A stretch of 64,000 bases of DNA, taken from assembly GCA_023380475.1 (NCBI GenBank), contig JAMCRD010000003.1, positions 28,397 through 92,396 of the forward strand, in the 5' to 3' direction. The notes beneath the pieces were generated by a model. That model was not told the DNA's origin. It worked only from the letters and a program-made list of their open reading frames with translations, and ran no database searches. Shown one piece after another: positions 41,452-64,000 of this stretch. The stretch's first letter is position 1, and each line of letters starts with the position of its first letter. The stretch comes from Patescibacteria group bacterium (GTDB lineage Bacteria; Patescibacteriota; Minisyncoccia; UBA6257; Colwellbacteraceae). A program made the position numbers and the translations under genes.

Positions 41452-41509
41452 CTTATTTTCCGAATTATTCTGATCCAGGGGTCTTTAATTTACACAATAA
41501 TTGACCTTG

Positions 41510-41581
41510 CTGCGGGGCTAGGAGTCGAACCTAGAATTCCTGCTCCAAAGGCAGGCGTGTTACCAATTGCACCACCCCGCA
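41510..41581 (-). tRNA. tRNA-Gln (anticodon UUG)
   Basis: The reverse complement UGCGGGGUGGUGCAAUUGGUAACACGCCUGCCUUUGGAGCAGGAAUUCUAGGUUCGACUCCUAGCCCCGCAG folds as a cloverleaf. It has U1-A72 and G73 (Gln identity elements), a TTCGA T-loop and a CUUUGGA anticodon loop. No CCA is encoded. Confidence 0.8.
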
Positions 41582-53618: not shown

Positions 53619-54226
53619 TGATAATCACCTGGGCCGGCGTAAAGCCTATTTTTGCCATTCTCAGTTTGATCACCACCTTATGGGCTGTACTCCCGTATCT
53701 ACGCGACATATTTCTCAAAAAGACGAAGCCCCATGCTTACACTTGGTTGATCTGGACCATAACCCAAGGCACTGCCGCCGCTGGATTGATATATGGCAAG
53801 GGAGGATGGGGAGGCTTAGAACTGGTTGTTGGTACGGCATTGGTATTCATAATATTTCTTCTGTCTCTAAAATATGGCACACGCAGTATAACTAAAAGTG
53901 ACACCGTGGTGCTCATATTCGCGCTGCTAGCGATTGTAATATGGTGGCAATTACATAACCCGTTCCTTGCCGTGATCATGGTGTCAGCCATAGATTTTGC
54001 CGGCTATATACCAAGTTTCAGAAAAACATTTTATGAACCATGGACCGAGACACCATCTTCTTGGGCAATATTCTCGTTGGGCAATATTTTAAACATACTT
54101 GCTCTCAGCCAATATAATTTCCTGACGCTTACTTATCTTATTACGATTATTATTGCTAACGCAGTACTCTTGGCGGTCTGTCTTATAAGGAGACAAGTTG
54201 TACTCCCTGACGCACCTACTAAATAG
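53618..54226 (+). CDS. polytopic membrane protein (hypothetical)
   Basis: A 202-aa protein with 6 TM helices. Its start overlaps the stop of the CofE-like gene (ATGA). Confidence 0.45.
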   Translation: MIITWAGVKPIFAILSLITTLWAVLPYLRDIFLKKTKPHAYTWLIWTITQGTAAAGLIYGKGGWGGLELVVGTALVFIIFLLSLKYGTRSITKSDTVVLIFALLAIVIWWQLHNPFLAVIMVSAIDFAGYIPSFRKTFYEPWTETPSSWAIFSLGNILNILALSQYNFLTLTYLITIIIANAVLLAVCLIRRQVVLPDAPTK

Positions 54227-54545: not shown

Positions 54546-54668
54546 ATGGATCGCAACAAAGTCAAGCAGCTAATCGGAGGGCTTACCTTCCTAGCTGCCT
54601 TTTTAATTCTTTCGTACGGTCTGCTGGTCGAGTTGGCAATTCTTAACGCAAGATGGTCTGTAAGATAA
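54546..54668 (+). CDS. small single-TM protein (40 aa; holin-like, speculative)
   Basis: MDRNKVKQLIGGLTFLAAFLILSYGLLVELAILNARWSVR, preceded by aaagga as an RBS. Confidence 0.25.
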   Translation: MDRNKVKQLIGGLTFLAAFLILSYGLLVELAILNARWSVR

Positions 54669-54895
54669 AGGAAAAGTCCAACCTGTGCATCCACGGCTAT
54701 ACCTATGGATATTGCCCAGGGGGGTGCACGCAGTTCGTCGATACAAGGGAATATCTCAAAGAAAAGCGCCGAGAGTTCCTGAAGTTATGGGGTCCCAAAG
54801 ACTGGACTGACCCTATGACCAAAAAAACAATTTGTCTCAGATTAGTTAATTACGACAGATTGATCCGGATGGCGCCAGGAGTCGAAGCAAATTAA
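54653..54895 (+). CDS. hypothetical Cys-containing small protein
   Basis: An 80-aa ORF carrying CIHGYTYGYCPGGC, with no recognisable family. Confidence 0.35.
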   Translation: MVCKIKEKSNLCIHGYTYGYCPGGCTQFVDTREYLKEKRREFLKLWGPKDWTDPMTKKTICLRLVNYDRLIRMAPGVEAN

Positions 54896-55019
54896 CAACG
54901 GTCTCAATCGGGAGGGATGCGATCCCCCTCTAAGCGCTTCATAAGAGTGCCGGGAAGACTAGGAAGTTTAATCGGAGACGGTTGGCTTCCTCTCTCCCGA
55001 TTACCAAGATTAAAAGCAA

Positions 55020-56012
55020 ATGAAAACATACACATACGAACCAACAAAACATCCTAGGCTCTTTCGCGTGGTAGACCGCGAGGGGAATTGGGAAAGGTAT
55101 TTCCTGACCGACCTTGTACCTGAAAAGGGCCGAGAAATATCGACCATGGGCGGAGTTTATCTTCGTGGCGTTACTACCATCCTTGATAAGGGATACGCCA
55201 AAGGAGAAGGTCTGTTACGCTTTCTGTCGCAGCATACCGAATCGGAAAGAGATGAGATCCTAAAGTCGGCTGGCGAGAGAGGTGACAAAGTTCACCGCGC
55301 TATTGCCATGCTCAGCGAAGGCTTAGGAACTCTCAACAAAACCGATGGGGTCTATAACCGTGAGATCAAAGAATACGAACCCTTGAGCAATGAGGAATGG
55401 GATTGTCTATTGGCTTTTGAGAGTTTTTGGAGAAGGCACGAACCGATAGTGTTGCAATCAGAAGCACCACTCTATTCGTTGGAAGGAGGGTACGCTGGGA
55501 CAGCCGATAAGATTTGGATCTTAACGAAAGCCTGTGATGTCAAGATGTGCCCTTGCAAGGACTGGATAAACCTCATCGGTCTGAACGATTACAAGACCAG
55601 TTCTGGTATTTACCCGAGCTACTGGGCTCAAGTCGGAGCCTACGCTAAAGCTGAGAACATCAAAGAGTATCTCCCAACGGGCAGAGTGATTGACTACACC
55701 TCGATCCTGCGGCTTGGCACAAACCACAAAACAACGGGAGGTTATGAGTTTCGGGTCAGCAACAGGCTCGGGGCTCAATATGAGTTGTTTGGGGCAGCCA
55801 AGACGATAGCCAACTATGAGAGCAATGAGTTCGATCCCTCCAAAGAGGTTCAAGAAATTCCTGATTCAATCACCATTGAATTGAAAAAGATGCCGGAGTC
55901 CGTCGAAACTCCCAAAGTCGAAAAGAAAAATGGAAAAGGTAAAAGAAATCAACCAAAAGCTGGGCGTAGTGCCAAAGCTAAGGCTGGGCACGCAGCAACC
56001 AGCCAAAAGTAA
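55020..56012 (+). CDS. RecB-family PD-(D/E)xK nuclease (phage-type exonuclease)
   Basis: GDKVHRAIA (motif I His), GTADKI (D), LNDYKTS (DxK) and QVGAYAKA (QxxxY). The C-terminal tail is K-rich. Confidence 0.55.
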   Translation: MKTYTYEPTKHPRLFRVVDREGNWERYFLTDLVPEKGREISTMGGVYLRGVTTILDKGYAKGEGLLRFLSQHTESERDEILKSAGERGDKVHRAIAMLSEGLGTLNKTDGVYNREIKEYEPLSNEEWDCLLAFESFWRRHEPIVLQSEAPLYSLEGGYAGTADKIWILTKACDVKMCPCKDWINLIGLNDYKTSSGIYPSYWAQVGAYAKAENIKEYLPTGRVIDYTSILRLGTNHKTTGGYEFRVSNRLGAQYELFGAAKTIANYESNEFDPSKEVQEIPDSITIELKKMPESVETPKVEKKNGKGKRNQPKAGRSAKAKAGHAATSQK

Positions 56013-56421
56013 GGACGGCAAGATCTACAACGCCATTGTTCCTAATGGTCCGCATCGATTAAAGTTTTTGGACGAACCAGTCGTCATTATAGCTAACATC
56101 AACGGTAAACCTGGGAAGGTCTTGAAATTCACAGTCGAAGAGAACGGCCAGAAGTTTCGTTGGATAGTAAAAATACTAAACGCCGAGGGACAGCCCAATT
56201 ATCTATTGGAACATCTTGAGCCTGTTATGGTCGGCGAGGAAAGAATAGTGGAGATGAAAAACAAGGGCGCTCGCAAGTTCATCGAGATCAGGAAGGTTGG
56301 AGAGGAATCAGCCTCGGAGGATGAAACCGATGAGATAGTCGATTACAAGGAGGATGAGGGATTGTCCGAAGACGAACTCAACGAGATGAGTCGCAGGGCC
56401 AAAGAAGATCTGAAAGAATGA
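55930..56421 (+). CDS. hypothetical phage protein with an acidic C-terminus
   Basis: A 163-aa ORF overlapping the nuclease gene by 83 nt in another frame. Its true start may be a downstream non-ATG codon. Confidence 0.35.
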   Translation: MEKVKEINQKLGVVPKLRLGTQQPAKSKDGKIYNAIVPNGPHRLKFLDEPVVIIANINGKPGKVLKFTVEENGQKFRWIVKILNAEGQPNYLLEHLEPVMVGEERIVEMKNKGARKFIEIRKVGEESASEDETDEIVDYKEDEGLSEDELNEMSRRAKEDLKE

Positions 56422-56603
56422 AAGCCTATCTCATACAAATTGAAGTGCGTCTTTCCTCCAAATCATATTTTCAGACACTGGGAGAGTCGCGACAGAATTG
56501 CAGCTCAGCGGAGACCGCCTCCAGTAGGGCTTTGAGAGAACTCAGACATGAATTGAAAGGTCGGAGGATAGCCGAGTACAAGATCCATATCACCAAGTGC
56601 TAG
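56418..56603 (+). CDS. hypothetical small protein
   Basis: A 61-aa ORF with an ATGA overlap with the upstream gene. Confidence 0.25.
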   Translation: MKAYLIQIEVRLSSKSYFQTLGESRQNCSSAETASSRALRELRHELKGRRIAEYKIHITKC

Positions 56604-56702
56604 TTATCTGACTGGGGCGTCCGGGCCAGATTAAGATCAACACTCCAAGTATCTCGATCTCATCGGCGTCTTGGTCAAGGAGAATAAGCAAAAGGGGAAG
56701 CG

Positions 56703-57185
56703 ATGTACTACATAAATATATCAAACGGTCTGCTTAAAGATTCCCACCGTACAAGGATGGGAGAGGCTATTTGGGAGTTCATGTGGTTATTGGATCGTAT
56801 GACTAGCGAGAGCGAGGATGGCATAGGGAAAGTCTTGGGGGGCAGGCCGATAAAGATTGATGAAATAGCCTGTGGATTTCCTGTGCATAGGACAACGGTG
56901 ATCCGCAATCTCAAACGCTTGGAGAATGAAGGATACATCAACGTTATTCGGGCTCCTTACGGATTAGTGATAACTGTGAATAAAGCCAAGAAAAAGCTAG
57001 TGAGAGATGTTGCGAGTTTGCACAGAGATATAGCGGATACGCAACATCTAATTAGATATAGCAAAGACGCAACATCTAATAATACTAAACACTACTTAAC
57101 AAAGACTAAACAGTCGGCACGCCCTGCGGGCGTCGATGTTAAACCCCTTGAAGGCGTAAGAGGGGGAGGATTAAGGCATATATGA
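56703..57185 (+). CDS. winged helix-turn-helix DNA-binding protein (phage regulator or replication-organiser-like)
   Basis: GFPVHRTTVIRNLKRLENEGYINVIR is a classic wHTH, followed by a basic tail. Confidence 0.5.
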   Translation: MYYINISNGLLKDSHRTRMGEAIWEFMWLLDRMTSESEDGIGKVLGGRPIKIDEIACGFPVHRTTVIRNLKRLENEGYINVIRAPYGLVITVNKAKKKLVRDVASLHRDIADTQHLIRYSKDATSNNTKHYLTKTKQSARPAGVDVKPLEGVRGGGLRHI

Positions 57186-57279
57186 ACCAAATGCCCGAAA
57201 AATACGTTACGGGCAGTTAACAAAACTCTAGGCGGTTCGTCGATGCCGATTAATCAAGAATCAAAAGTCAAAAAACAAA

Positions 57280-57756
57280 ATGAACAAAAACGACATAAAC
57301 AACAACTGGGTAGAAATAGGATACAAGCAAATCCCCCAAAAGGTTTTCGACAAATACGGAGTCAAGCCGTTCGAGATAATGAAACGGAAGATGCGCAAAA
57401 AAGAGGGTCAAGTCTGGAACCTCATCTCTTACAATGACGCCAAAGAAGAAGCCGAGCGACGGGGCTGCCGTCTTCCCTCCGTTCAGGAGATGCTGGTACT
57501 GCTCGAATGGTACAAGCACGAGAAGGGGAACAAGGCGAATATCAGAGACAATCAATTTCTGGGCATAGAGGAGCTTTCATATAAGGAGTTTGTCTATCTG
57601 GAATGGGTGGAAGGACTAATTCCGTACCTTCGCGGTGGCGATTGGGGTAATGGCTCGGGTGGTGGGCCGTTCACGTTGAACCTGGATTGGGGCGCGGGCA
57701 CTACGAGCACCTATGTGGGTTTCCGCTGTGCCCGCAGCCGTAGAAATCCGAAATAA
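57280..57756 (+). CDS. FGE-sulfatase (SUMF1-like) domain protein, short form
   Basis: GCRLPSVQEMLVLLEW resembles RLPTEAEWEYA. YLRGGDWGNG and the C-terminal VGFRCARS are the family hallmark. Confidence 0.5.
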   Translation: MNKNDINNNWVEIGYKQIPQKVFDKYGVKPFEIMKRKMRKKEGQVWNLISYNDAKEEAERRGCRLPSVQEMLVLLEWYKHEKGNKANIRDNQFLGIEELSYKEFVYLEWVEGLIPYLRGGDWGNGSGGGPFTLNLDWGAGTTSTYVGFRCARSRRNPK

Positions 57757-57763
57757 AACGAAG

Positions 57764-58153
57764 ATGGAGCTTAAATTGACCCAACACGACATAATCAGGA
57801 ACTACCTCGACGGGAAGGGATGGGTGTACGAGTACAAAATCCGAGGGCTGGACACCGAGTGGGGCTTCATCGGGGCCAGAGGGGACAGGGACGTAAGGCA
57901 GATGATAAGGAACGGGGAACTGGAAGCCTCCTTTAACGGCAAATACCGAATAGTCAGATTGAAAAGGTCGCCGAGTCCAAGAGAACTAGCGGATGAACTC
58001 AACCAAGAAATTGAGGAGAAAGGCGGACAGGTTGTGGCAGATAAAATGCCAAGCCCTATCAAAGAGGTGTCTGGTATGCGGACGGCCGACGCAGGTATGC
58101 CATCACTTTTTCCCGAAGAGCATAGCGGCATCTCTTCGCTACGACATTTCTAA
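57764..58153 (+). CDS. hypothetical phage protein
   Basis: MELKLTQHDIIRNYLDGKGWVYEYKIRGLDTEWGF... It overlaps the HNH gene by 160 nt in another frame. Confidence 0.3.
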   Translation: MELKLTQHDIIRNYLDGKGWVYEYKIRGLDTEWGFIGARGDRDVRQMIRNGELEASFNGKYRIVRLKRSPSPRELADELNQEIEEKGGQVVADKMPSPIKEVSGMRTADAGMPSLFPEEHSGISSLRHF

Positions 58154-58370
58154 CGGCGTTCCGTTATGCAACGTTTGCCATTTCAAGCTGCACAACGGAG
58201 ACCCCACCGTGGGGGCGAAGATACTGGAATTGAGGGGAGCAAAATGGCTGGAGGGATTGGAAGAGCGGCGCAAGGGGAAGGTCAGACCGACGGTGGGATA
58301 TTTCGAGAAAGTCATCGCCGACCTGTCTAACGAGACTGACGAGAAACAAAGAAAGGACAAAGAAAAATGA
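57993..58370 (+). CDS. HNH endonuclease
   Basis: CLVCGRPTQVCHHFFPKS...NGVPLCNVCHFKLH is a CxxC...HH...N...CxxC...H HNH Zn-finger nuclease motif. Confidence 0.65.
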   Translation: MNSTKKLRRKADRLWQIKCQALSKRCLVCGRPTQVCHHFFPKSIAASLRYDISNGVPLCNVCHFKLHNGDPTVGAKILELRGAKWLEGLEERRKGKVRPTVGYFEKVIADLSNETDEKQRKDKEK

Positions 58371-58522
58371 AACAAAAAATGAAGAGGCTCACGGTGTGGG
58401 TAACGACGGAGAATCTGAAGCAGCTCGCCAAACTCGCCAGGGAGTCCAACAAGTCTCGGGTAATCAGGGGTTTAATCGTAAAGGCCGCAGGTGGGGGTTC
58501 CCAGTCGGAAAAGGTACGGTAA
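58367..58522 (+). CDS. ribbon-helix-helix (CopG/Arc-like) small DNA-binding protein
   Basis: MKQKMKRLTVWVTTENLKQLAKLARESNKSRVIRGLI follows the beta-alpha-alpha RHH pattern. Its ATG overlaps the HNH stop (ATGA). It is not in the ORF track. Confidence 0.45.
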   Translation: MKQKMKRLTVWVTTENLKQLAKLARESNKSRVIRGLIVKAAGGGSQSEKVR

Positions 58523-58562
58523 AGACAAAAACAAAAGAGATGGACGATAATAAATTAGAAAA

Positions 58563-59009
58563 ATGAGGCAAATTAAATCAGCATTGGGAGAAGTATTGAA
58601 ACTCCTCAACAAGTCCTATAAAGATCAGGAAATCCGTGTTTGCGACAACTGTGGAGTCCCATTGATATGGACTTTTTGTTGGGCGTATCGCGAGAGATAC
58701 TGTCTCAACTGTGGGATAAGTGGCGCAATGCTGGGGACTGGCGAAGATGTGGAATTAACCAGCGAATTGAAGTATGAGGCAAGGGTGATAGATGACATCT
58801 GGAAAGCAATCTACAAAAATCTAGTGCCGCGTTCATCTTACAAACGGAATGGATGTAAGAAGTGTGAGGGAGAAGATCATAACAAACACCTCTCAAGGTC
58901 CGAAATTTTTAGAGATAAAACAGCGACGGAAATTCTCAAAAAATTAGCGGAGGGCTTCACCGTTAAAAGAGAAATTTTAGAAAGAGGATTATATCAGGGA
59001 CAAGTTTAG
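58563..59009 (+). CDS. zinc-ribbon hypothetical phage protein
   Basis: CDNCG...CLNCG plus CKKCEGEDH suggest two Zn-binding knuckles. Confidence 0.35.
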   Translation: MRQIKSALGEVLKLLNKSYKDQEIRVCDNCGVPLIWTFCWAYRERYCLNCGISGAMLGTGEDVELTSELKYEARVIDDIWKAIYKNLVPRSSYKRNGCKKCEGEDHNKHLSRSEIFRDKTATEILKKLAEGFTVKREILERGLYQGQV

Positions 59010-59042
59010 GAACTGTCCGGAAAACATAATTAAGCCGAAAGG

Positions 59043-59249
59043 ATGGTAAAAACCGTTTACGGCATGAAATCTAAAATGACCGACCAAGAGTTCAAGGAAA
59101 AATGTGAGAAACATAGGGAAAAGCTTAAGGTGCTATTGAACTCCGGCTTCTTTGAGCTCAAAAATACCAAGGTCGAGGTGAACTTCGGGCCAAAGGGAGA
59201 GATAGGGGATTGGTCTATTGTCCGGCAGAGTGTGTACAAACGACCATGA
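59043..59249 (+). CDS. hypothetical small protein
   Basis: A 68-aa ORF with no motif. Confidence 0.25.
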   Translation: MVKTVYGMKSKMTDQEFKEKCEKHREKLKVLLNSGFFELKNTKVEVNFGPKGEIGDWSIVRQSVYKRP

Positions 59250-59340
59250 ATATGCTATAATACTCAAAACTGAATAAGTAAAAGTCCCAAGCGATAATAA
59301 GCCGGACATCTCGCAATGAGGTGGCCGGTATTTCATTTTT

Positions 59341-59778
59341 ATGGGAGCACCAAAGGGAAATCAATACGCAAAAGGAAATAAGGGAGGGCGCCCTCCGAAA
59401 GTAGAGCCGCAAAATCTTCCCGCGTTCGGTGAAGAACTGGTGTCATGGGCAACTCGGAAATACCAGACGCTTCTTTCGGCGCCCGACAAGGAGGCAAAAA
59501 TGCCCTTCTTCATCAAGACGTTCTGTCGGGAGTATAAAATATCGGAAGACACGCTCCAAGCGTACAGGGAGGCAAATAAAGAGTTTTCCGCCTCGTATAA
59601 GCAGGCAAGACAGATTATTGCTGAAGCACTCATGGTTGGAGCACTCAAGGGATGGTGGCATCCGACCGCTTTTATCTTCATCGCCAAGAATGAAACCGAA
59701 ATGAGAGATAACTCGTCGGTTGATCTCACATCGGGCGGAGAAAAGATTACGGTCAACCTGGTCGAATTCAAAAGATGA
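59341..59778 (+). CDS. terminase small subunit
   Basis: MGAPKGNQYAKGNKGGRPPK is an N-terminal signature common to phage TerS HTH domains. It sits upstream of terL. Confidence 0.55.
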   Translation: MGAPKGNQYAKGNKGGRPPKVEPQNLPAFGEELVSWATRKYQTLLSAPDKEAKMPFFIKTFCREYKISEDTLQAYREANKEFSASYKQARQIIAEALMVGALKGWWHPTAFIFIAKNETEMRDNSSVDLTSGGEKITVNLVEFKR

Positions 59779-60314
59779 AACTCTCGGTTTTAATCTGTTC
59801 TTTGTCTTCACGAGGCGAGCATCTCGCCAAGTTGCTTTCGATCTTGTTTCCCCAAATTCAGGAGGAGACTGAAATTATCGTTTCCATTGACGACGGAGGA
59901 CAAAAAATAGGTGTCAAACGCAATAGGTTGATGGCATCGGCACTGGGCCAGTATGTCTGTTTTATCGATGACGATGACGAGGTGAGCGACGACTATATTG
60001 CCCAGATTATGACCGGCATCGAATCCGGTGCCGACCACGTGGCAATAGGCGGCATTATGACGACGAATGGCAGAGAACCACACGAATTCAGAAGCTCGAA
60101 GGATTATGTCTGGCATGAAAAAGACGGCGTCTATTATCGCGGCGTCCAGCATCTGGGAGTGATTAAGCGTGATCTGGTACTTCAATGTCCCTTCCCTCCG
60201 ATCAGTTTCGGGGAAGACCGCGAATTCAGCGAGAGGGTAACGCCGCTAATCAAGACAGAGTACCAAATCCAAAAGCCGATTTACTTCTATCGATACCGGA
60301 ACCCGAAATGCTGA
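59775..60314 (+). CDS. family 2 glycosyltransferase (short, 179 aa)
   Basis: LSVLICSL...EIIVSIDDGGQ...YVCFIDDDDEV shows the GT-A fold with a DxD motif. Confidence 0.6.
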   Translation: MKLSVLICSLSSRGEHLAKLLSILFPQIQEETEIIVSIDDGGQKIGVKRNRLMASALGQYVCFIDDDDEVSDDYIAQIMTGIESGADHVAIGGIMTTNGREPHEFRSSKDYVWHEKDGVYYRGVQHLGVIKRDLVLQCPFPPISFGEDREFSERVTPLIKTEYQIQKPIYFYRYRNPKC

Positions 60315-60964
60315 GTGTCATAATGCCGGTCTATAATCACGTTCTCTACACCTATCGGGCCGTAGAGTCGCTCCTTGAACACACTGCTGCGCCAGCTAGG
60401 CTCATTATGATTGACGATGGCTCGACCGATGATACGCATGATTACGCTATGGAACTTTCGGATCGGCTGAAAGAGAGATTTTATTATGGCCGAAACCAAA
60501 AGAATGAGGGTGTCCACTACAGCTGGAATGCAGGACTACGCGCCGCTTTCGACCAGAATTCAGATTATATCGCCATTGTGAATAACGATGTCCTCTTCAC
60601 AAAGAACTGGGATTCGCCCCTCATCAATGCCCTAAAAACGAAGAAGCTTGTGAGTCCATATCATACGGATGGCTCATTGCCGGATGATTGGCCGTCCGGG
60701 AGCCGCAGGATTGCGAACCAGGGTAACTTGCCGATTCTGGGCGCTTGTTTCATGGCACAAACGCAGACATTCAGGGATGTGGGCTTTTTCCCCGAACAAA
60801 TGCGGTACTACTTCGGAGACAACTGGCTGGTGCGACAGGTCGGGGAACAGCAATGTACCCAGGTGCCCGAAAGCTACATCCATCACTATTTCTCGAAAAC
60901 AACGAGTGAACTTCAGAATGATTTTTGGTTCAAAAAAGACCAAGAAGAATACTTGCGGCTATGA
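60308..60964 (+). CDS. family 2 glycosyltransferase
   Basis: MLSVIMPVYNHVLYT...LIMIDDGSTDDT...YIAIVNNDVLF. Its ATG overlaps the upstream stop, and its own stop overlaps the terL ATG. Confidence 0.65.
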   Translation: MLSVIMPVYNHVLYTYRAVESLLEHTAAPARLIMIDDGSTDDTHDYAMELSDRLKERFYYGRNQKNEGVHYSWNAGLRAAFDQNSDYIAIVNNDVLFTKNWDSPLINALKTKKLVSPYHTDGSLPDDWPSGSRRIANQGNLPILGACFMAQTQTFRDVGFFPEQMRYYFGDNWLVRQVGEQQCTQVPESYIHHYFSKTTSELQNDFWFKKDQEEYLRL

Positions 60965-62241
60965 CAATTCAATTCCCCACCCAAGAATTTATCGACTCTA
61001 TACGACCTTACCAATCCGAGTACCTTTCGTCTCCCCAGAAGAATAACGTGCTTATGTGGCACAGAGGCAGCCGCAAGACCACGACACTGCTCCAAAAATT
61101 GCTTATTTCAGCGCATCGCGAGGTTGGTCTCTACTGGTATATCGGGCCCTATCTTACCCAGGCGCGATCGACGATATGGACAGACCCAGCAACGCATATT
61201 TTCCGATGGATACCATCGGACTATCTGAAGCGGTTACGCGTCAATAACAGCGAGATGTCGATAACATTCCCGAACGGAAGCGTCTTGCAGGCCAAGGGAA
61301 TGGACAATCCGAATGGACTCCGTGGCCCTAAACCGAAGGGGGTTGTGCTCGACGAATACGGTGAAATGGCGAAGCGGTGGGGCAGCGAACCTCGTGAAGC
61401 CATCATTGAGCCGTCCATGCTCTCGTCGGGGGGCTGGACTGACTACGCGGGGACGCCGAAAGGAAACAATGATCTTGCGCACCTTTTACGGCGGCAGGAT
61501 TATTTCGCGTCTCTCAAAACAGTCGAAGATACGGGTGTGTATTTGCCGGAGCAGATTGAGGAATTGAAGCGGAATGCCGTCAATATAGATTTCTTTTGGC
61601 AAGAATACTACTGCAAAATCATCGAGGGAGCCTCAAGCGTTTTCAAAGACATCGAGAATGCCGTCTCGGGAGAACTGGAGAAGCCGCAGAGTGGCGAGGA
61701 GTATCTTTTTGGAATTGATTTAGCGCGGAGTTTTGACGCGACTGTCCTCGTCGGTTTCAAAATATCCACCAATCATCTCGTGTACTACGAGAGGATAAAA
61801 GATAGAACGTGGGAAGCGCAGAAAAACCTCATCGCCGGTACGCTCGCTTCGTACCATGGCGCGCGGGCTATTGTTGACGCAACGGGTGTGGGCGATAGTT
61901 TCACAGAAGAGTTGATGAGGATGGGACTCAATATCATGCCTCTTAAGATCGCCAATAACCTCATTAAGCGGAATCTGGTCGAAAAACTCGGTTCTTACCT
62001 TGAAAACAGATACATCACCATTCCCAGCATTCAAGAAATGATTGACGAATTGAAAAATTACGAGTATGTGCTTACGGCAAGTAACAATATCGTTTACTCG
62101 GCCCCATCCGGCAAGCACGACGATGTCGTAATGGCGTTGGCGCTGGCAGTTTCAGCTCTCAATCCCACGCCTTTCGTTGTTTCCCAAAATGCTTTTGTTC
62201 CGCCGGTTACTATCGACCCCAGAACGGGTTATATTGTATGA
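60961..62241 (+). CDS. terminase large subunit
   Basis: Walker A-like HRGSRKTTTL and Walker B VVLDEYGE sit in the ATPase domain. The nuclease domain carries FGIDLA...DDVVMALALA. Confidence 0.7.
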   Translation: MTIQFPTQEFIDSIRPYQSEYLSSPQKNNVLMWHRGSRKTTTLLQKLLISAHREVGLYWYIGPYLTQARSTIWTDPATHIFRWIPSDYLKRLRVNNSEMSITFPNGSVLQAKGMDNPNGLRGPKPKGVVLDEYGEMAKRWGSEPREAIIEPSMLSSGGWTDYAGTPKGNNDLAHLLRRQDYFASLKTVEDTGVYLPEQIEELKRNAVNIDFFWQEYYCKIIEGASSVFKDIENAVSGELEKPQSGEEYLFGIDLARSFDATVLVGFKISTNHLVYYERIKDRTWEAQKNLIAGTLASYHGARAIVDATGVGDSFTEELMRMGLNIMPLKIANNLIKRNLVEKLGSYLENRYITIPSIQEMIDELKNYEYVLTASNNIVYSAPSGKHDDVVMALALAVSALNPTPFVVSQNAFVPPVTIDPRTGYIV

Positions 62242-62432
62242 ACGAAGAACTACGTTGCAAATTATGCGGTAAATTGTTGGGCAAGGGATTGCAGTTAGGG
62301 GGCATTGTAGCCATCAAGTGCCATCGGTGCGGTACCATCACGGAGTTCGGGAATAAAATCGTCCACTATATCGTTCGTACCGAAGCGGGCGAGGAGTTAG
62401 GGCTCTTGACACTGAAAAATAAAAAGATATAA
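62238..62432 (+). CDS. Mu Com-like zinc-finger protein
   Basis: LRCKLCGKLLGKG...IKCHRCGT parallels Mu Com (IRCKNCNKLL...IRCPRCK). It has an ATGA overlap with the terL stop. Confidence 0.6.
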   Translation: MNEELRCKLCGKLLGKGLQLGGIVAIKCHRCGTITEFGNKIVHYIVRTEAGEELGLLTLKNKKI

Positions 62433-62433
62433 T
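62406..62433 (+). promoter_or_regulatory. consensus sigma70 promoter TTGACA-N16-TATAAT
   Basis: cTTGACActgaaaaataaaaagaTATAATga has a -10 box overlapping the com-like stop codon. Confidence 0.5.
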
Positions 62434-62468
62434 GACAATATAAAATAATAAGTTTTGAGTGCCTTTGA

Positions 62469-62491
62469 GCGCCAGAAGTGGCGCTTTTTTT
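62469..62491 (+). terminator. rho-independent terminator hairpin in the leader of the portal gene
   Basis: gcgcca-gaag-tggcgc followed by ttttttt. The T-tract runs into the portal ATG at 62489. Confidence 0.65.
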
Positions 62492-64000
62492 GTTGTATGA
62501 AAAAACCATCGGCACAAGAAATACTCAATCAATTTCGCATCGAGAAACAGGCAGCCTCGAAGACTCGGCAGTCGAAGATGTCCCATTGGCTCCAAAATGA
62601 GGAGCTTCACAATGGCGTTATTCAGCGAACTCTTTTGACGAAATCAAATCTTCATGTCCCGAAAGTGTTTGAGGGGGTACAAGATATGGCGTCCCGTCTC
62701 GGGGAGTTACCGACTATCGAATACGACACAAAGCCGGAAGGCGATGAAAATGCAGCAGATCTCATGAAGCATCTGTTCTTGTATGACGGCAGGAAATCAG
62801 ATTTGGAACACTTATGGGAACTGTCAAAAATCGAAGCGGGTCTCTATGGGCGTCCCATTTACAAACTGTTTCCATCACCGAACGGCGTCGCTTTCCAGCT
62901 TATCGATACGATGAGTTTTCTCATTTCTCCGCTTTCGCCGACGATAGATTCCGCGCTTTATTGCGGTCAGCAATTCATCTATAAGACGGCAGCGCAGCTG
63001 ATGGAGGAGGCCGAAGAATACGGTTACGACAAGAAAGAGGTGATGAAGGCTCGCAAAGCCGTGGCCGAAACCATCTCATCGGAAAATCCGGAAGTGAGCC
63101 AGCGCAACCTGCGGCTTGCCTATCTCGGTTTTGACAATGTGAACCTCGCAGGAGCGAAAGTCATCGAACTCACGGAATGGTACACGCATCTTGTGAACGA
63201 AAAGGGGTTGCCGGAAAAATATCTTCTCACCGTCGCGAACGACCAGTTCCTGCTTCGCGCCATTCCGATAACTGAAGCGGGGTTTGAGGATAAATTCCCG
63301 TTTATTTCGCGGGCGCTTTTCCCGCGTCTCGTCTCGTTCTGGGTTCCGTCAGTCGCGGATATCTATCGCGATCCGAACTTGGCGATGGATGTGATTATGA
63401 ATCAGAACATCGACAATAATACCTACCGCAATTTCGGGATGCTCTTTGTCGATTCGGCCAGCGGTCTCAAGCAATCCGCTGTCGTTCCGCGCCCCCTCGG
63501 CGTTGTACCGATCAATGTCGGAGCGAAATCGGTTAAGGACGCCGTGCTGCCATATAATCCGCCGGATATTTCGCAATCTACCGCCTTATCCAGCCAGATT
63601 GAAACGCTCTCTGACAATGCGGCCGGTCTCGGTTTCGTGCTTCCCATGGGACGGGCAAAAATGTCGGTCTCCCAATTAAACCTCGAAATGTCGCTCATTG
63701 AACAGCGATTAAGCACGTCAAAGATGAACCTCATCGCGATGGCAAAGGATATGGGCCAGATGTACGCCGATCTCATCAAGAAGAACCTTACGACTCCCCG
63801 GGCAGTCAAAACCTTCGGCATGAAAGACCTCACTATCTCAGGAGTTACGAAAGCGAACTTTAAGGGCGTTGACTTCATTGCAAAGGCGACTGCGAAGGAG
63901 AATGTCCAGCAAAACAAGGCGCTCTGGCAGAAATCAATTCAGGCTCTCTTCGCGATGTTCAAGGACGACCAGAACATCCCCAATCAGCGCTATCTCCGCG
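62489..64000 (+). CDS. probable portal protein (5' partial view; ORF continues past the window end)
   Basis: At least 504 codons are open from the ATG at 62489, in frame through base 64000. It lies immediately downstream of terL/com. The assignment is positional. Confidence 0.4.

What the first reader, a model, noticed from the sequence alone, without database searches (positions are those of the whole stretch)
59775..60964. Two translationally coupled GT2 glycosyltransferase genes wedged between terS and terL
terS and terL are normally adjacent. Here two GT-A-fold DxD glycosyltransferases (179 and 218 aa) sit between them with ATGA/ATGCTGA overlaps on both sides. That implies co-translation with the packaging genes. 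Possible roles are glycosylation of virion proteins, modification of a host surface receptor (seroconversion or superinfection exclusion) or a nucleotide-sugar step. None of these is established here.
Basis: seen in the sequence. Interest (0 to 1): 0.65.

Follow-up and report, generated by a model that had tools for sequence, protein, structure and literature searches.

The report
Phage glycosyltransferase pair inside packaging operon
A prophage in a Patescibacteria (CPR) genome carries two intact, soluble sugar-adding enzymes spliced between its two DNA-packaging genes; one belongs to a large phage enzyme family that includes an enzyme from the operon mycobacteriophages use to sugar-coat their particles, so it most likely decorates the virus particle, though this is not shown.

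Summary
terS (59341-59778), GT-A (59775-60314, 179 aa), GT-B (60308-60964, 218 aa) and terL (60961-62241) are joined by ATGA / ATGCTGA / ATGA overlaps. Both enzymes are intact GT2 proteins with a GT-A fold (pLDDT 96 and 94) and family-invariant catalytic residues, so they are not pseudogenes.

The element is a podovirus-like prophage (SU10-type portal) in a Patescibacteria MAG. The terS-GT-GT-terL order holds in at least five related metagenomic phages. Sister phages with 74-78% identical terL lack the pair and carry other small ORFs in the same place, so the pair is accessory cargo in a variable slot.

GT-A belongs to a large phage family (about 2,060 50%-identity clusters at E<=1e-30). The family includes the GT domain of Che8 gp108 and LittleE gp15. 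GT-A-like and GT-B-like domains are fused in Gordonia phage Keelan gp122 and in metagenomic proteins.

Neither enzyme is GtrB-like: no TM segments, and no GtrA in the 14-20 kb of relatives read. No hydroxymethylase was seen.

- Best reading: late-expressed glycosylation of virion proteins (about 0.45).
- Main rival: TarP-like modification of host wall polymer (about 0.3).

No substrate is shown. Interest is moderate.

The parts
59233..59261 (+). Promoter-like site (TGTACA-17-TATAAT with an upstream TG) about 80 nt before terS. It is a candidate start of the terS-GT-GT-terL-com transcription unit.
   Evidence: Consensus scan, (10 of 12 matches). This is a pattern match only, and the region holds 17 such sites against 11.8 expected by chance.
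59341..59778 (+). Small terminase subunit (terS), 145 aa.
   Evidence: phrog_606 4.5e-9. PF16677 GP3_package scores 23.4 bits, below its 29.4 cut-off. It is 83% identical in L014 and has a homologue in L109.
59775..60314 (+). GT-A: a soluble 179-aa GT2 glycosyltransferase with a GT-A fold. It belongs to the phage family that contains the N-terminal domain of Che8 gp108, LittleE gp15 and the N-terminal domain of Keelan gp122.
   Evidence: PF00535 36.6 bits; phrog_8858 8.5e-35. BLASTP against Che8 gp108 residues 10-183 gives 31.5% identity and E 4.6e-30. Invariant residues include D65-D68, E147-D148, K48 and R49. AlphaFold pLDDT is 96.2. Foldseek finds TarS, TarP, SpsA and AvpGT at TM 0.70-0.75. 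No TM segment.
60308..60964 (+). GT-B: a soluble 218-aa GT2 glycosyltransferase with a GT-A fold, from a small family. It is related to the C-terminal domain of Keelan gp122.
   Evidence: PF00535 81.2 bits. Invariant residues include D36, D37, N92, D94, H192 and H193. AlphaFold pLDDT is 94.2. Foldseek finds WrtF, ppGalNAc-T and heparosan synthase. hhalign against Keelan gp122 residues 278-410 gives probability 97.5% and E 5e-12. No TM segment.
60961..62241 (+). Large terminase subunit (terL), 426 aa.
   Evidence: Terminase_6N 25.9 bits and Terminase_6C 31.3 bits, both above cut-off; phrog_2 8.8e-34.
62238..62432 (+). Com-like zinc-ribbon protein, 64 aa. It overlaps the terL stop codon and is the last gene of the unit.
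   Evidence: PF10122 Zn_ribbon_Com 27.2 bits against a 22.9 cut-off. Conserved in L014-L016 and absent in L006 and L012.
62467..62486 (+). G+C-rich hairpin followed by a U-run. It is either the terminator of the packaging unit or a 5' structure of the portal mRNA.
   Evidence: Terminator scan. RNA fold. The stem is conserved and the loop varies in L014 and L016.
62498..64000 (+). Start of the SU10-type portal gene, which runs off the end of the window.
   Evidence: The identical DNA in L004 encodes a 585-aa PF23899 SU10_portal protein. Scaffold-like, major capsid (Phage_capsid_4), Gp80 fibre, Laminin_G_3 and K1-lyase_C genes follow it.

Best explanation
The two genes are an accessory two-enzyme glycosylation cassette. 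It sits in the variable slot between terS and terL of a temperate, podovirus-like phage of a Patescibacteria (CPR) bacterium.

Shown: the cassette is transcribed and translated as part of the late packaging unit (terS, GT-A, GT-B, terL, com), immediately upstream of the portal, scaffold and capsid genes. Both products are small, soluble, cytoplasmic, metal-dependent-type enzymes with a GT-A fold. They must use host nucleotide sugars, because no sugar-nucleotide synthesis genes accompany them.

Inferred: during late infection the two enzymes act in sequence. One attaches a sugar and the other extends it, building a short O-linked glycan on a virion protein (capsid, head fibre or tail protein) before or during assembly. 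This would resemble what the Che8 gp108-110 operon does in mycobacteriophages. The glycan would change the particle surface, for example its stability, stickiness or recognition. The substrate, the donor sugar and the order of action are not known.
For: 1. GT-A is a full-length homologue of the GT domain of Che8 gp108 (31.5% identity, E 4.6e-30), Che9d gp109, LittleE gp15 and Keelan gp122. All 61 isolate-phage hits are actinobacteriophages. Che8 gp108 lies in the gp108-110 GT operon at the right genome end, just before cos and the terminase genes. Cluster F phages of this type carry glycans on capsid and tail-tube subunits, made by phage GTs (PMC11256854; PMC12619734; PMC12363180).
2. In LittleE the homologue sits with three more GTs between the major capsid and head-tail connector genes.
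3. In the window the pair is embedded by overlapping start and stop codons in the packaging unit. There is no intergenic space for a promoter of its own. A promoter-like site lies before terS and a hairpin with a U-run lies after com.
4. The arrangement is conserved in L006/L007, L012 and L014-L016, with GT-A at 50-75% and GT-B at 53-79% identity.
5. Catalytic residues are invariant from the CPR phages to the actinophages, and the fold predictions are confident.
6. Fusion proteins link the two families. Keelan gp122 has a GT-A-like N-terminal domain and a GT-B-like C-terminal domain. The metagenomic proteins P0157, P0231, P0115 and P0129 carry both domain types.
7. Among 72 IMG/VR loci with a GT-A homologue, a recognisable terL lies on the same strand 4-15 genes downstream in 23 and 2-10 genes upstream in 9. 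Extra GTs and methyltransferases often lie between them.
8. A distant GT-B homologue lies among nucleotide-sugar genes, ClpP and terL in a 99-kb phage.
9. Neither enzyme has a TM segment.
Against: - No substrate is shown.
- The GT reported as essential for Che8 capsid glycosylation is gp110, a GT25 enzyme (PMC12363180; Pfam). Neither window enzyme resembles it. Che8 gp108 carries a TylF-like O-methyltransferase domain that has no counterpart here.
- The capsid ends in a hydroxyl-rich tail (GATL-S/T-G-S/T-x-A) in all phages that carry the pair. Relatives without the pair have similar tails (TLSTSNA, TLNGTTA), so there is no clean association.
- The closest solved structures are wall-teichoic-acid and polysaccharide GTs, not protein O-GTs, for GT-A.
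- The phage is a prophage, which is the typical setting for host-surface conversion genes.
- Freeman et al. 2023 could not be read here. The roles of individual Che8 GTs rest on secondary citations.
Confidence: 0.45

Rival explanations
1. Host envelope modification. The two soluble GTs would add sugars to a host wall glycopolymer or lipid-linked precursor on the cytoplasmic face, as the prophage-encoded TarP does for S. aureus wall teichoic acid. This would change the receptor. The effect could be superinfection exclusion or lysogenic conversion, or protection of progeny from sticking to cell debris.
For: The element is integrated next to host genes in three assemblies. The best structural matches of GT-A are TarS and TarP (TM 0.72-0.75), with SpsA, AvpGT and WrtF also listed. 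Profile hits are to polysaccharide and teichoic-type GT2 enzymes. TarP-type enzymes need neither TM segments nor a flippase. The pair is accessory within the clade, as conversion genes usually are.
Against: The pair has no promoter space, terminator or att-proximal position of its own. It is locked by overlaps into the late packaging unit, which is not expected to be expressed in a lysogen. GT-A lacks the C-terminal oligomerisation domains of TarS and TarP and shares only 15-19% identity with them. The GT-A family sits inside structural modules of other phages, such as LittleE, and in large, presumably lytic phage contigs. All NCBIfam equivalog scores are far below cut-off.
Confidence: 0.3
2. 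DNA glycosylation. The GTs would add sugars to modified bases (5-hmC or 5-hmU) on phage DNA just before or during packaging, to evade restriction.
For: The position next to the packaging enzymes fits this reading. Phage GTs that hypermodify DNA are diverse (Pyle et al. 2024, as cited in PMC12619734). One distant GT-A homologue lies 5.5 kb from a thymidylate-synthase-family gene. A Com-like protein, which in Mu controls the DNA-modification gene mom, follows terL.
Against: No thymidylate-synthase or hydroxymethylase-family gene appears in the visible early region (55.0-59.3 kb), nor in the 14-20 kb of relatives that was annotated. The characterised homologues (the Che8 operon) act on proteins. 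The com gene is followed by the portal gene, not by a mom-like gene.
Confidence: 0.07
3. Neutral or selfish cargo. The pair would be one of several interchangeable inserts in a recombination-prone terS-terL junction, with a role unrelated to the virion or the host surface (for example a small-molecule or host-protein target) or with no current role.
For: The junction holds unrelated small ORFs in L109 (97 and 83 aa) and L019 (127 aa), and nothing in L108, L107 and L110.
Against: Catalytic residues are invariant. The pair is kept together across relatives down to about 50% (GT-A) and 53% (GT-B) identity with the same order and coupling. That argues for purifying selection on a joint function.
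Confidence: 0.15

Closest known systems
Mycobacteriophage virion glycosylation operon (Che8 gp108-gp110; also Corndog and Myrna; Freeman et al. 2023, Cell Host Microbe 31:1216, known here only through citing papers)
   Same: GT-A is a full-length homologue of the GT2 domain of Che8 gp108, Che9d gp109 and LittleE gp15 (31-35% identity, E about 1e-28 to 1e-32 in a small database). In both cases several GT genes are linked by overlaps. In both cases they lie next to the packaging or head module: the right genome end before cos and terS in cluster F, and between capsid and connector genes in LittleE. All are soluble enzymes with a GT-A fold.
   Different: There is no counterpart of gp110, the GT25 enzyme reported as essential, nor of gp109. 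There is no O-methyltransferase domain. The host is a CPR bacterium, not an actinobacterium. The virion is podovirus-like (SU10-type portal and adaptor), so the tail-tube target known from Che8 does not exist here. The genes lie between terS and terL. Glycosylation has not been demonstrated.
Gordonia phage Keelan gp122 (443-aa annotated glycosyltransferase, uncharacterised)
   Same: One polypeptide holds a GT-A-like N-terminal domain (residues 3-186, 37% identity) and a GT-B-like C-terminal domain (residues 278-410, hhalign probability 97.5%). It has the same two families in the same order as the window's two genes.
   Different: It is fused, not split. It lies in the right arm among early or non-structural genes. 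Its function is unknown.
GtrABC O-antigen seroconversion modules of temperate enterobacterial phages
   Same: Both involve a GT2 catalytic core in a temperate phage. GT-B gives a weak phrog_841 (GtrB-like) hit (1.6e-6, residues 2-95 only).
   Different: GtrB is about 310 aa with two C-terminal TM helices. It works with the flippase GtrA and the membrane GT GtrC, next to the attachment site, and is expressed in lysogens (established knowledge). Here there are no TM segments and no GtrA-like gene in the regions read, and the genes lie in the late operon.
TarP / TarS wall-teichoic-acid GlcNAc-transferases (TarP is prophage-encoded in S. aureus)
   Same: These are the best structural matches of GT-A (TM 0.72-0.75). 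They are soluble, cytoplasmic GT2 enzymes and are carried by prophages.
   Different: Identity is 15-19%. GT-A lacks the C-terminal trimerisation and acceptor domains (179 aa against 327-573 aa). The genomic context is different.
T4-type DNA glucosyltransferases
   Same: They are phage-encoded GTs that act late on a phage macromolecule.
   Different: The T4 alpha- and beta-GT have a GT-B fold and need 5-hmC DNA (established knowledge). Here the fold is GT-A and no hydroxymethylase was seen.

Membership tests
GT2 / GT-A-fold glycosyltransferases (PF00535) | Pfam score above the gathering threshold. | tested here: met
   GT-A scores 36.6 bits and GT-B 81.2 bits against a 23.3 cut-off.
GT2 / GT-A-fold glycosyltransferases (PF00535) | GT-A fold. 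| tested here: met
   AlphaFold pLDDT is 96.2 and 94.2. Foldseek gives probability 1.0 to many GT2 and GT27 structures at TM 0.65-0.75.
GT2 / GT-A-fold glycosyltransferases (PF00535) | Nucleotide-binding Asp after strand 2, and a DxD-type metal-binding motif. | tested here: met
   GT-A has D39 (at least 90% conserved) and D65-D66-D67-D68 (invariant). GT-B has D36-D37 invariant, but its DxD position reads N92-N93-D94, invariant in its family. That is a single-Asp variant.
GtrB-like bactoprenol glucosyltransferase (seroconversion) | Protein of about 310 aa with C-terminal TM helices. | tested here: not met
   The proteins are 179 and 218 aa. The maximum Kyte-Doolittle 19-residue mean is 1.03 and 0.86, so there is no TM segment. 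The phrog_841 match covers residues 2-95 only.
GtrB-like bactoprenol glucosyltransferase (seroconversion) | GtrA flippase and GtrC partner genes adjacent. | tested here: not met
   The neighbours are terS and terL. No such Pfam family appears in 20 kb of identical DNA (L004) or in 10 kb downstream of the capsid gene in L105. The far end of the prophage was not seen.
Actinobacteriophage virion-glycosylation system (Che8 gp108-110 type) | A GT homologous to the gp108 GT2 domain. | tested here: met
   GT-A against Che8 gp108 residues 10-183: 31.5% identity, E 4.6e-30. phrog_8858 8.5e-35.
Actinobacteriophage virion-glycosylation system (Che8 gp108-110 type) | A gp110-like GT25 enzyme, reported as essential for capsid glycosylation. 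| tested here: not met
   Che8 gp110 matches PF01755 (GT25). There is no BLAST hit from either window GT. hhalign of GT-B against gp110 gives probability 0.15%.
Actinobacteriophage virion-glycosylation system (Che8 gp108-110 type) | A sugar O-methyltransferase domain or gene in the cassette. | tested here: not met
   Che8 gp108 carries a TylF / Methyltransf_24 domain. The window cassette has none. Many IMG/VR cassettes with a GT-A homologue do have methyltransferases.
Actinobacteriophage virion-glycosylation system (Che8 gp108-110 type) | Glycans attached to virion proteins (C-termini of capsid and tail tube). | not testable with these tools
   There is only sequence context. The capsid C-terminus is GATLSGSTA, but phages that lack the pair have similar tails.
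TarP/TarS-type teichoic-acid glycosyltransferases | GT-A catalytic domain plus a C-terminal oligomerisation or acceptor domain, with sequence-level family membership. | tested here: not met
   The similarity is structural only (15-19% identity). GT-A ends after the catalytic domain. The PDB profile E-value is 3e-8 over the core only.
Phage DNA glycosyltransferases (T4 alpha/beta-GT type) | GT-B fold, and a co-encoded base hydroxymethylase. | tested here: not met
   The fold is GT-A. No Thymidylat_synt-family gene appears in the annotated parts of the phage or its relatives. The whole prophage was not seen.
Terminase small / large subunit pair | terL with ATPase and RNaseH-like nuclease domains, and terS upstream. 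| tested here: met
   terL matches PF03237 and PF17289 above cut-off. terS matches phrog_606 at 4.5e-9 but is below the Pfam cut-off.

The most novel reading that the evidence does not exclude
Virion glycosylation would not be confined to phages of Actinobacteria. Under this reading a minimal two-enzyme cassette glycosylates the particles of phages that infect CPR/Patescibacteria. The GT-A family (about 2,060 50%-identity clusters, mostly in uncultured phages and often beside terL, extra GTs and methyltransferases) would mark a widespread, overlooked habit of phages sugar-coating their own capsids.
Probability: 0.35. Interest if true: 0.65.

Novelty: new member of a known kind. Interest (0 to 1): 0.42.

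Why it matters
Glycosylated phage particles have so far been shown only for mycobacteriophages. That work reported little sign of the trait in other phages (my recollection of the abstract of Freeman et al. 2023; the paper could not be opened here).

This locus ties one enzyme family of that system to a prophage of a CPR bacterium and to hundreds of uncultured phages, where it usually sits in or beside the packaging and structural module. If the enzymes do decorate virions, this would give:
- a sequence marker for finding glycosylated phages in metagenomes;
- a very small (two-gene) system to reconstitute in the laboratory;
- a rare functional clue about the phages and surfaces of Patescibacteria, whose biology is largely inaccessible.

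If instead the enzymes modify the host wall, they would be one of the first candidate lysogenic-conversion functions in a CPR prophage. Either way, the present evidence is comparative only.

Tried and rejected
1. Capsid-tail test. I compared the capsid C-terminal tail (GATL-S/T-G-S/T-x-A) between phages with and without the GT pair. Those without it have TLSTSNA, TLNGTTA, TLEGGNA and TYNLATVAGK, so the association is not clean and I dropped it as evidence. The Pro/Ala/Ser/Thr-rich C-terminus of the portal aligns in L019 and L109, which lack the pair, so it is not informative either.

2. Partner genes of distant GT-A homologues. I asked whether the 219-230 aa genes that follow distant GT-A homologues (L008, L009) are GT-B relatives. 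They are not. GT-A and GT-B are not detectable paralogues of each other by BLASTP.

3. Che8 comparisons. The C-terminal domain of Che8 gp108 is not GT-B-like; it is a TylF-type methyltransferase. GT-B is unrelated to Che8 gp109 and gp110 beyond the shared fold.

4. A 'terS-like' gene in IMG/VR loci. A 92-aa gene lies upstream of the GT cassette in about 21 loci. My HMM was seeded with it, and BLAST against the window terS gives only E of 2-6. PHROG calls it unknown (phrog_11043). I therefore do not claim a second terS-GT-terL lineage. I claim only a GT cassette immediately upstream of terL.

5. Literature. Freeman et al. 2023 could not be opened by PMC id or DOI. A full-text search for Patescibacteria + prophage + glycosyltransferase + terminase found nothing.

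6. Other libraries. NCBIfam gave only far-below-threshold equivalog hits. Rfam found nothing in the region. PHROGs found nothing for eight flanking ORFs.

7. The far end of the prophage (integrase, lysis genes, any further sugar genes) could not be reached with the allowed look-ups.
Full report
**1. What is in the sequence**

Four co-directional ORFs occupy 59341-62241:
- terS, 59341-59778, 145 aa.
- GT-A, 59775-60314, 179 aa.
- GT-B, 60308-60964, 218 aa.
- terL, 60961-62241, 426 aa.

Reading the bases directly confirms the overlaps: ATGA at 59775-59778, ATGCTGA at 60308-60314 and ATGA at 60961-60964.

Profile searches confirm the identities:
- GT-A: PF00535 at 36.6 bits; phrog_8858 8.5e-35.
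- GT-B: PF00535 at 81.2 bits.
- terL: Terminase_6N and Terminase_6C above cut-off; phrog_2 8.8e-34.
- terS: phrog_606 4.5e-9, with a sub-threshold PF16677 hit.

Automatic gene callers on identical DNA start GT-B 15 nt later (213 aa). The 60308 start is better supported, for three reasons. It restores the conserved first beta-strand seen in six homologues. It matches Pfam model position 1. It forms strand 1 in the AlphaFold model. ATGA overlaps are frequent throughout this window, so the coupling shows a shared operon and nothing unusual.

**2. Setting**

The exact GT-A protein is deposited as 'MAG: glycosyltransferase [Patescibacteria group bacterium]'. Two other assemblies, a Logan contig and GCA_023476555.1, carry the same junction between host genes and the phage genes. 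The host genes are a class-I Glu/Gln-tRNA-synthetase-type gene, murG, a C39-like peptidase and a membrane protein ending at 54226.

The phage part of the window starts between 54.2 and 55.0 kb. It encodes an exonuclease, a DnaD-like protein and an HNH/NinG-like nuclease before terS.

Downstream, on the identical contig L004 and the relative L105, come:
- a Com-like zinc ribbon;
- an SU10-type portal;
- a scaffold-like protein;
- a Phage_capsid_4 major capsid protein;
- a Gp80-like fibre protein;
- Laminin_G_3 and K1-lyase_C proteins;
- an SU10-type adaptor.

This is a podovirus-like structural module. No GtrA-like, polyprenol-linked or nucleotide-sugar genes were found there.

A promoter-like site (59233-59261) precedes terS, and a hairpin with a U-run (62467-62486) follows com. 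Together they suggest a discrete terS-GT-GT-terL-com unit. These are pattern matches only.

**3. The enzymes are intact**

An alignment of GT-A with 32 homologues, which reaches the actinobacteriophage proteins, keeps D65-D68, K48, R49, D87, H126 and E147-D148 invariant. The 13-member GT-B family keeps D36, D37, N92, D94, H192 and H193 invariant. Its 'DxD' therefore reads N-N-D.

Both fold confidently as GT-A-fold domains (pLDDT 96.2 and 94.2). The Foldseek matches are generic GT2 and GT27 enzymes. GT-A finds TarS, TarP, SpsA and AvpGT. GT-B finds WrtF, polypeptide GalNAc-transferases and heparosan and chondroitin synthases. PDB and NCBIfam profile hits are far below any equivalog level.

Neither protein has a TM-like segment.

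**4. Conservation and dispensability**

The order terS-GT-A-GT-B-terL-portal-capsid recurs in L006/L007, L012 and L014-L016. In these, GT-A is 50-75% and GT-B 53-79% identical. L014 has four-base overlaps at all three junctions.

Phages with essentially the same structural module lack the pair:
- L109 (terL 74% identical) has two unrelated small ORFs (97 and 83 aa) between terS and terL.
- L019 (terL 78% identical) has a 127-aa ORF before terL.
- L108 has terS overlapping terL directly.
- L107 and L110 have a different terL type next to terS.

The terS-terL junction is thus a variable slot, and the pair is accessory cargo. It has been kept together and intact wherever it is present.

**5. Family relations**

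In isolate phage genomes, GT-A finds only actinobacteriophage genes (61 records). They include the N-terminal domains of Che8 gp108 and Che9d gp109 (cluster F), LittleE gp15 (cluster J) and Gordonia phage Keelan gp122.

Che8 gp108-110 lie at the right genome end, directly before cos and terS-terL. LittleE gp15, 17, 18 and 21 lie between the capsid and the head-tail connector genes.

Citing papers state the following:
- Che8-type phages carry glycans on the capsid and tail-tube subunits.
- These glycans are made by phage GTs.
- gp110 is essential (PMC11256854; PMC12619734; PMC12363180).

The primary paper could not be opened.

Pfam shows gp108 to be GT2 plus a TylF-like O-methyltransferase, and gp110 to be GT25. 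Neither window enzyme resembles gp110 or gp109. The window therefore shares one component family with the Che8 system, not the whole system.

GT-B finds almost nothing in isolate phages, and its close family is small (12 proteins at E<1e-30). It does align with the C-terminal domain of Keelan gp122 (probability 97.5%, E 5e-12), whose N-terminal domain is GT-A-like. Among the 150 best representatives of the GT-A family, 100 are longer than 240 aa. Four of these (P0157, P0231, P0115, P0129) carry a near full-length GT-B-profile domain next to the GT-A-type domain. These fusions argue that the two enzymes work in one pathway.

**6. How widespread the family is, and where it sits**

An exhaustive profile search finds about 2,060 50%-identity clusters at E<=1e-30. 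A single peptide pattern recovers at least 487 IMG/VR loci.

In 72 analysed loci:
- 61 have a second GT-like gene within a few genes of the homologue, directly upstream in 37. These genes fall in the same BLAST cluster as the GT-A homologues; the cluster representative matches phrog_14945.
- Methyltransferases commonly follow it.
- A recognisable terL lies on the same strand 4-15 genes downstream in 23 loci and 2-10 genes upstream in 9.

Many of these loci belong to one clade, so the number of independent events is small.

More distant homologues lie in multi-GT and methyltransferase clusters of large phages, near ClpP-type proteases, tail fibres or terL. A distant GT-B homologue lies among dTDP-sugar and NDP-sugar enzymes, ClpP and terL. 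The general pattern is a glycan-building cassette inside or beside late and structural genes.

**7. Interpretation**

*Virion-protein glycosylation.* Late, virion-directed protein glycosylation best fits four observations: the homology to the Che8 and LittleE family, the operon position, the solubility of the enzymes, and the contexts across the family. I put it at about 0.45.

*Host wall modification.* The main rival is TarP-like cytoplasmic modification of a host wall polymer, at about 0.3. It fits the prophage setting and the structural neighbours. It fits poorly with a gene pair that has no regulatory space of its own inside a late operon.

*DNA glycosylation.* This is unlikely, at about 0.07. 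The fold is GT-A, no hydroxymethylase is visible, and the characterised relatives act on proteins.

*GtrB-type seroconversion.* This fails its defining features.

I looked for a substrate signature. The capsid ends in a hydroxyl-rich tail whose Ser and Thr interchange among phages that carry the pair. Relatives that lack the pair have similar tails, so this is inconclusive.

**8. Verdict**

The feature is a new member of a known kind: a phage-encoded GT2 cassette related to the actinophage virion-glycosylation genes. Its placement (a variable terS-terL slot) and its host (CPR) are unusual. Interest is moderate, because everything about the substrate remains inference.

Noticed in passing
window 62238-62520: A Com-like zinc-ribbon gene (PF10122) overlaps the terL stop codon. 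After it come a perfect TTGACA-16-TATAAT promoter-like site (62406-62433), a G+C hairpin with a U-run (62467-62486) and the likely portal ATG (62498). In the predicted fold, an outer stem (GUGCC...GGCAC) encloses that ATG. Promoter, stem and ATG are conserved in L014 and L016, while the loop differs. This could be Mu Com/mom-like translational control of the portal gene. com is absent in relatives L006 and L012.
   Followed up: partly
window 1-54226 versus 54650-64000; L004, L005: The window is mostly host chromosome, labelled Patescibacteria/CPR by NCBI, with a prophage starting between 54.2 and 55.0 kb. No integrase lies at this end. The NCBI MAG contig breaks inside terL. The other prophage end, att sites and integrase were not seen. 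tRNA-Gln at 41509-41581 (-) is 13 kb away and is probably unrelated.
   Followed up: partly
L109:7460-9281: In a relative that lacks the GT pair, the major capsid gene matches in two pieces (residues 1-85 and 20-325) separated by about 670 nt. This suggests an intron, an intein-like element or a homing-endonuclease insertion, or a duplication. LittleE also has a capsid gene annotated with a group I intron.
   Followed up: no
L019, L108, L109, L107, L110 (terS-terL junction): The junction between the small and large terminase genes is a variable slot in this phage group. It holds the GT pair, two small ORFs (one with Cys pairs that suggest a zinc ribbon), a 127-aa ORF with an HExxE motif (HELIE), or nothing.
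   Followed up: partly
window 57280-57756: A 158-aa phage protein whose C-terminus matches phrog_2889 (1.5e-7) and gives a weak FGE-sulfatase / tail-protein-like hit. It sits among the early genes and its function is unknown.
   Followed up: no
L025-L104 (IMG/VR): Many uncultured phages carry a cassette of a GT (phrog_14945), a GT-A homologue and two or three methyltransferases (FkbM-like and others) directly upstream of terL. A 92-aa protein (phrog_11043, unknown function) precedes the cassette. Its N-terminus carries a GRPKG motif like that of small terminases, but homology to the window terS could not be shown.
   Followed up: partly
L008 / contig of P0008: A distant GT-A homologue lies next to an anti-Pycsar Apyc1-like metallo-beta-lactamase-fold gene, a peptide deformylase and a C1 peptidase, in a 42.6-kb contig that looks like a phage. 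This is counter-defence and auxiliary-gene context, not followed up.
   Followed up: no
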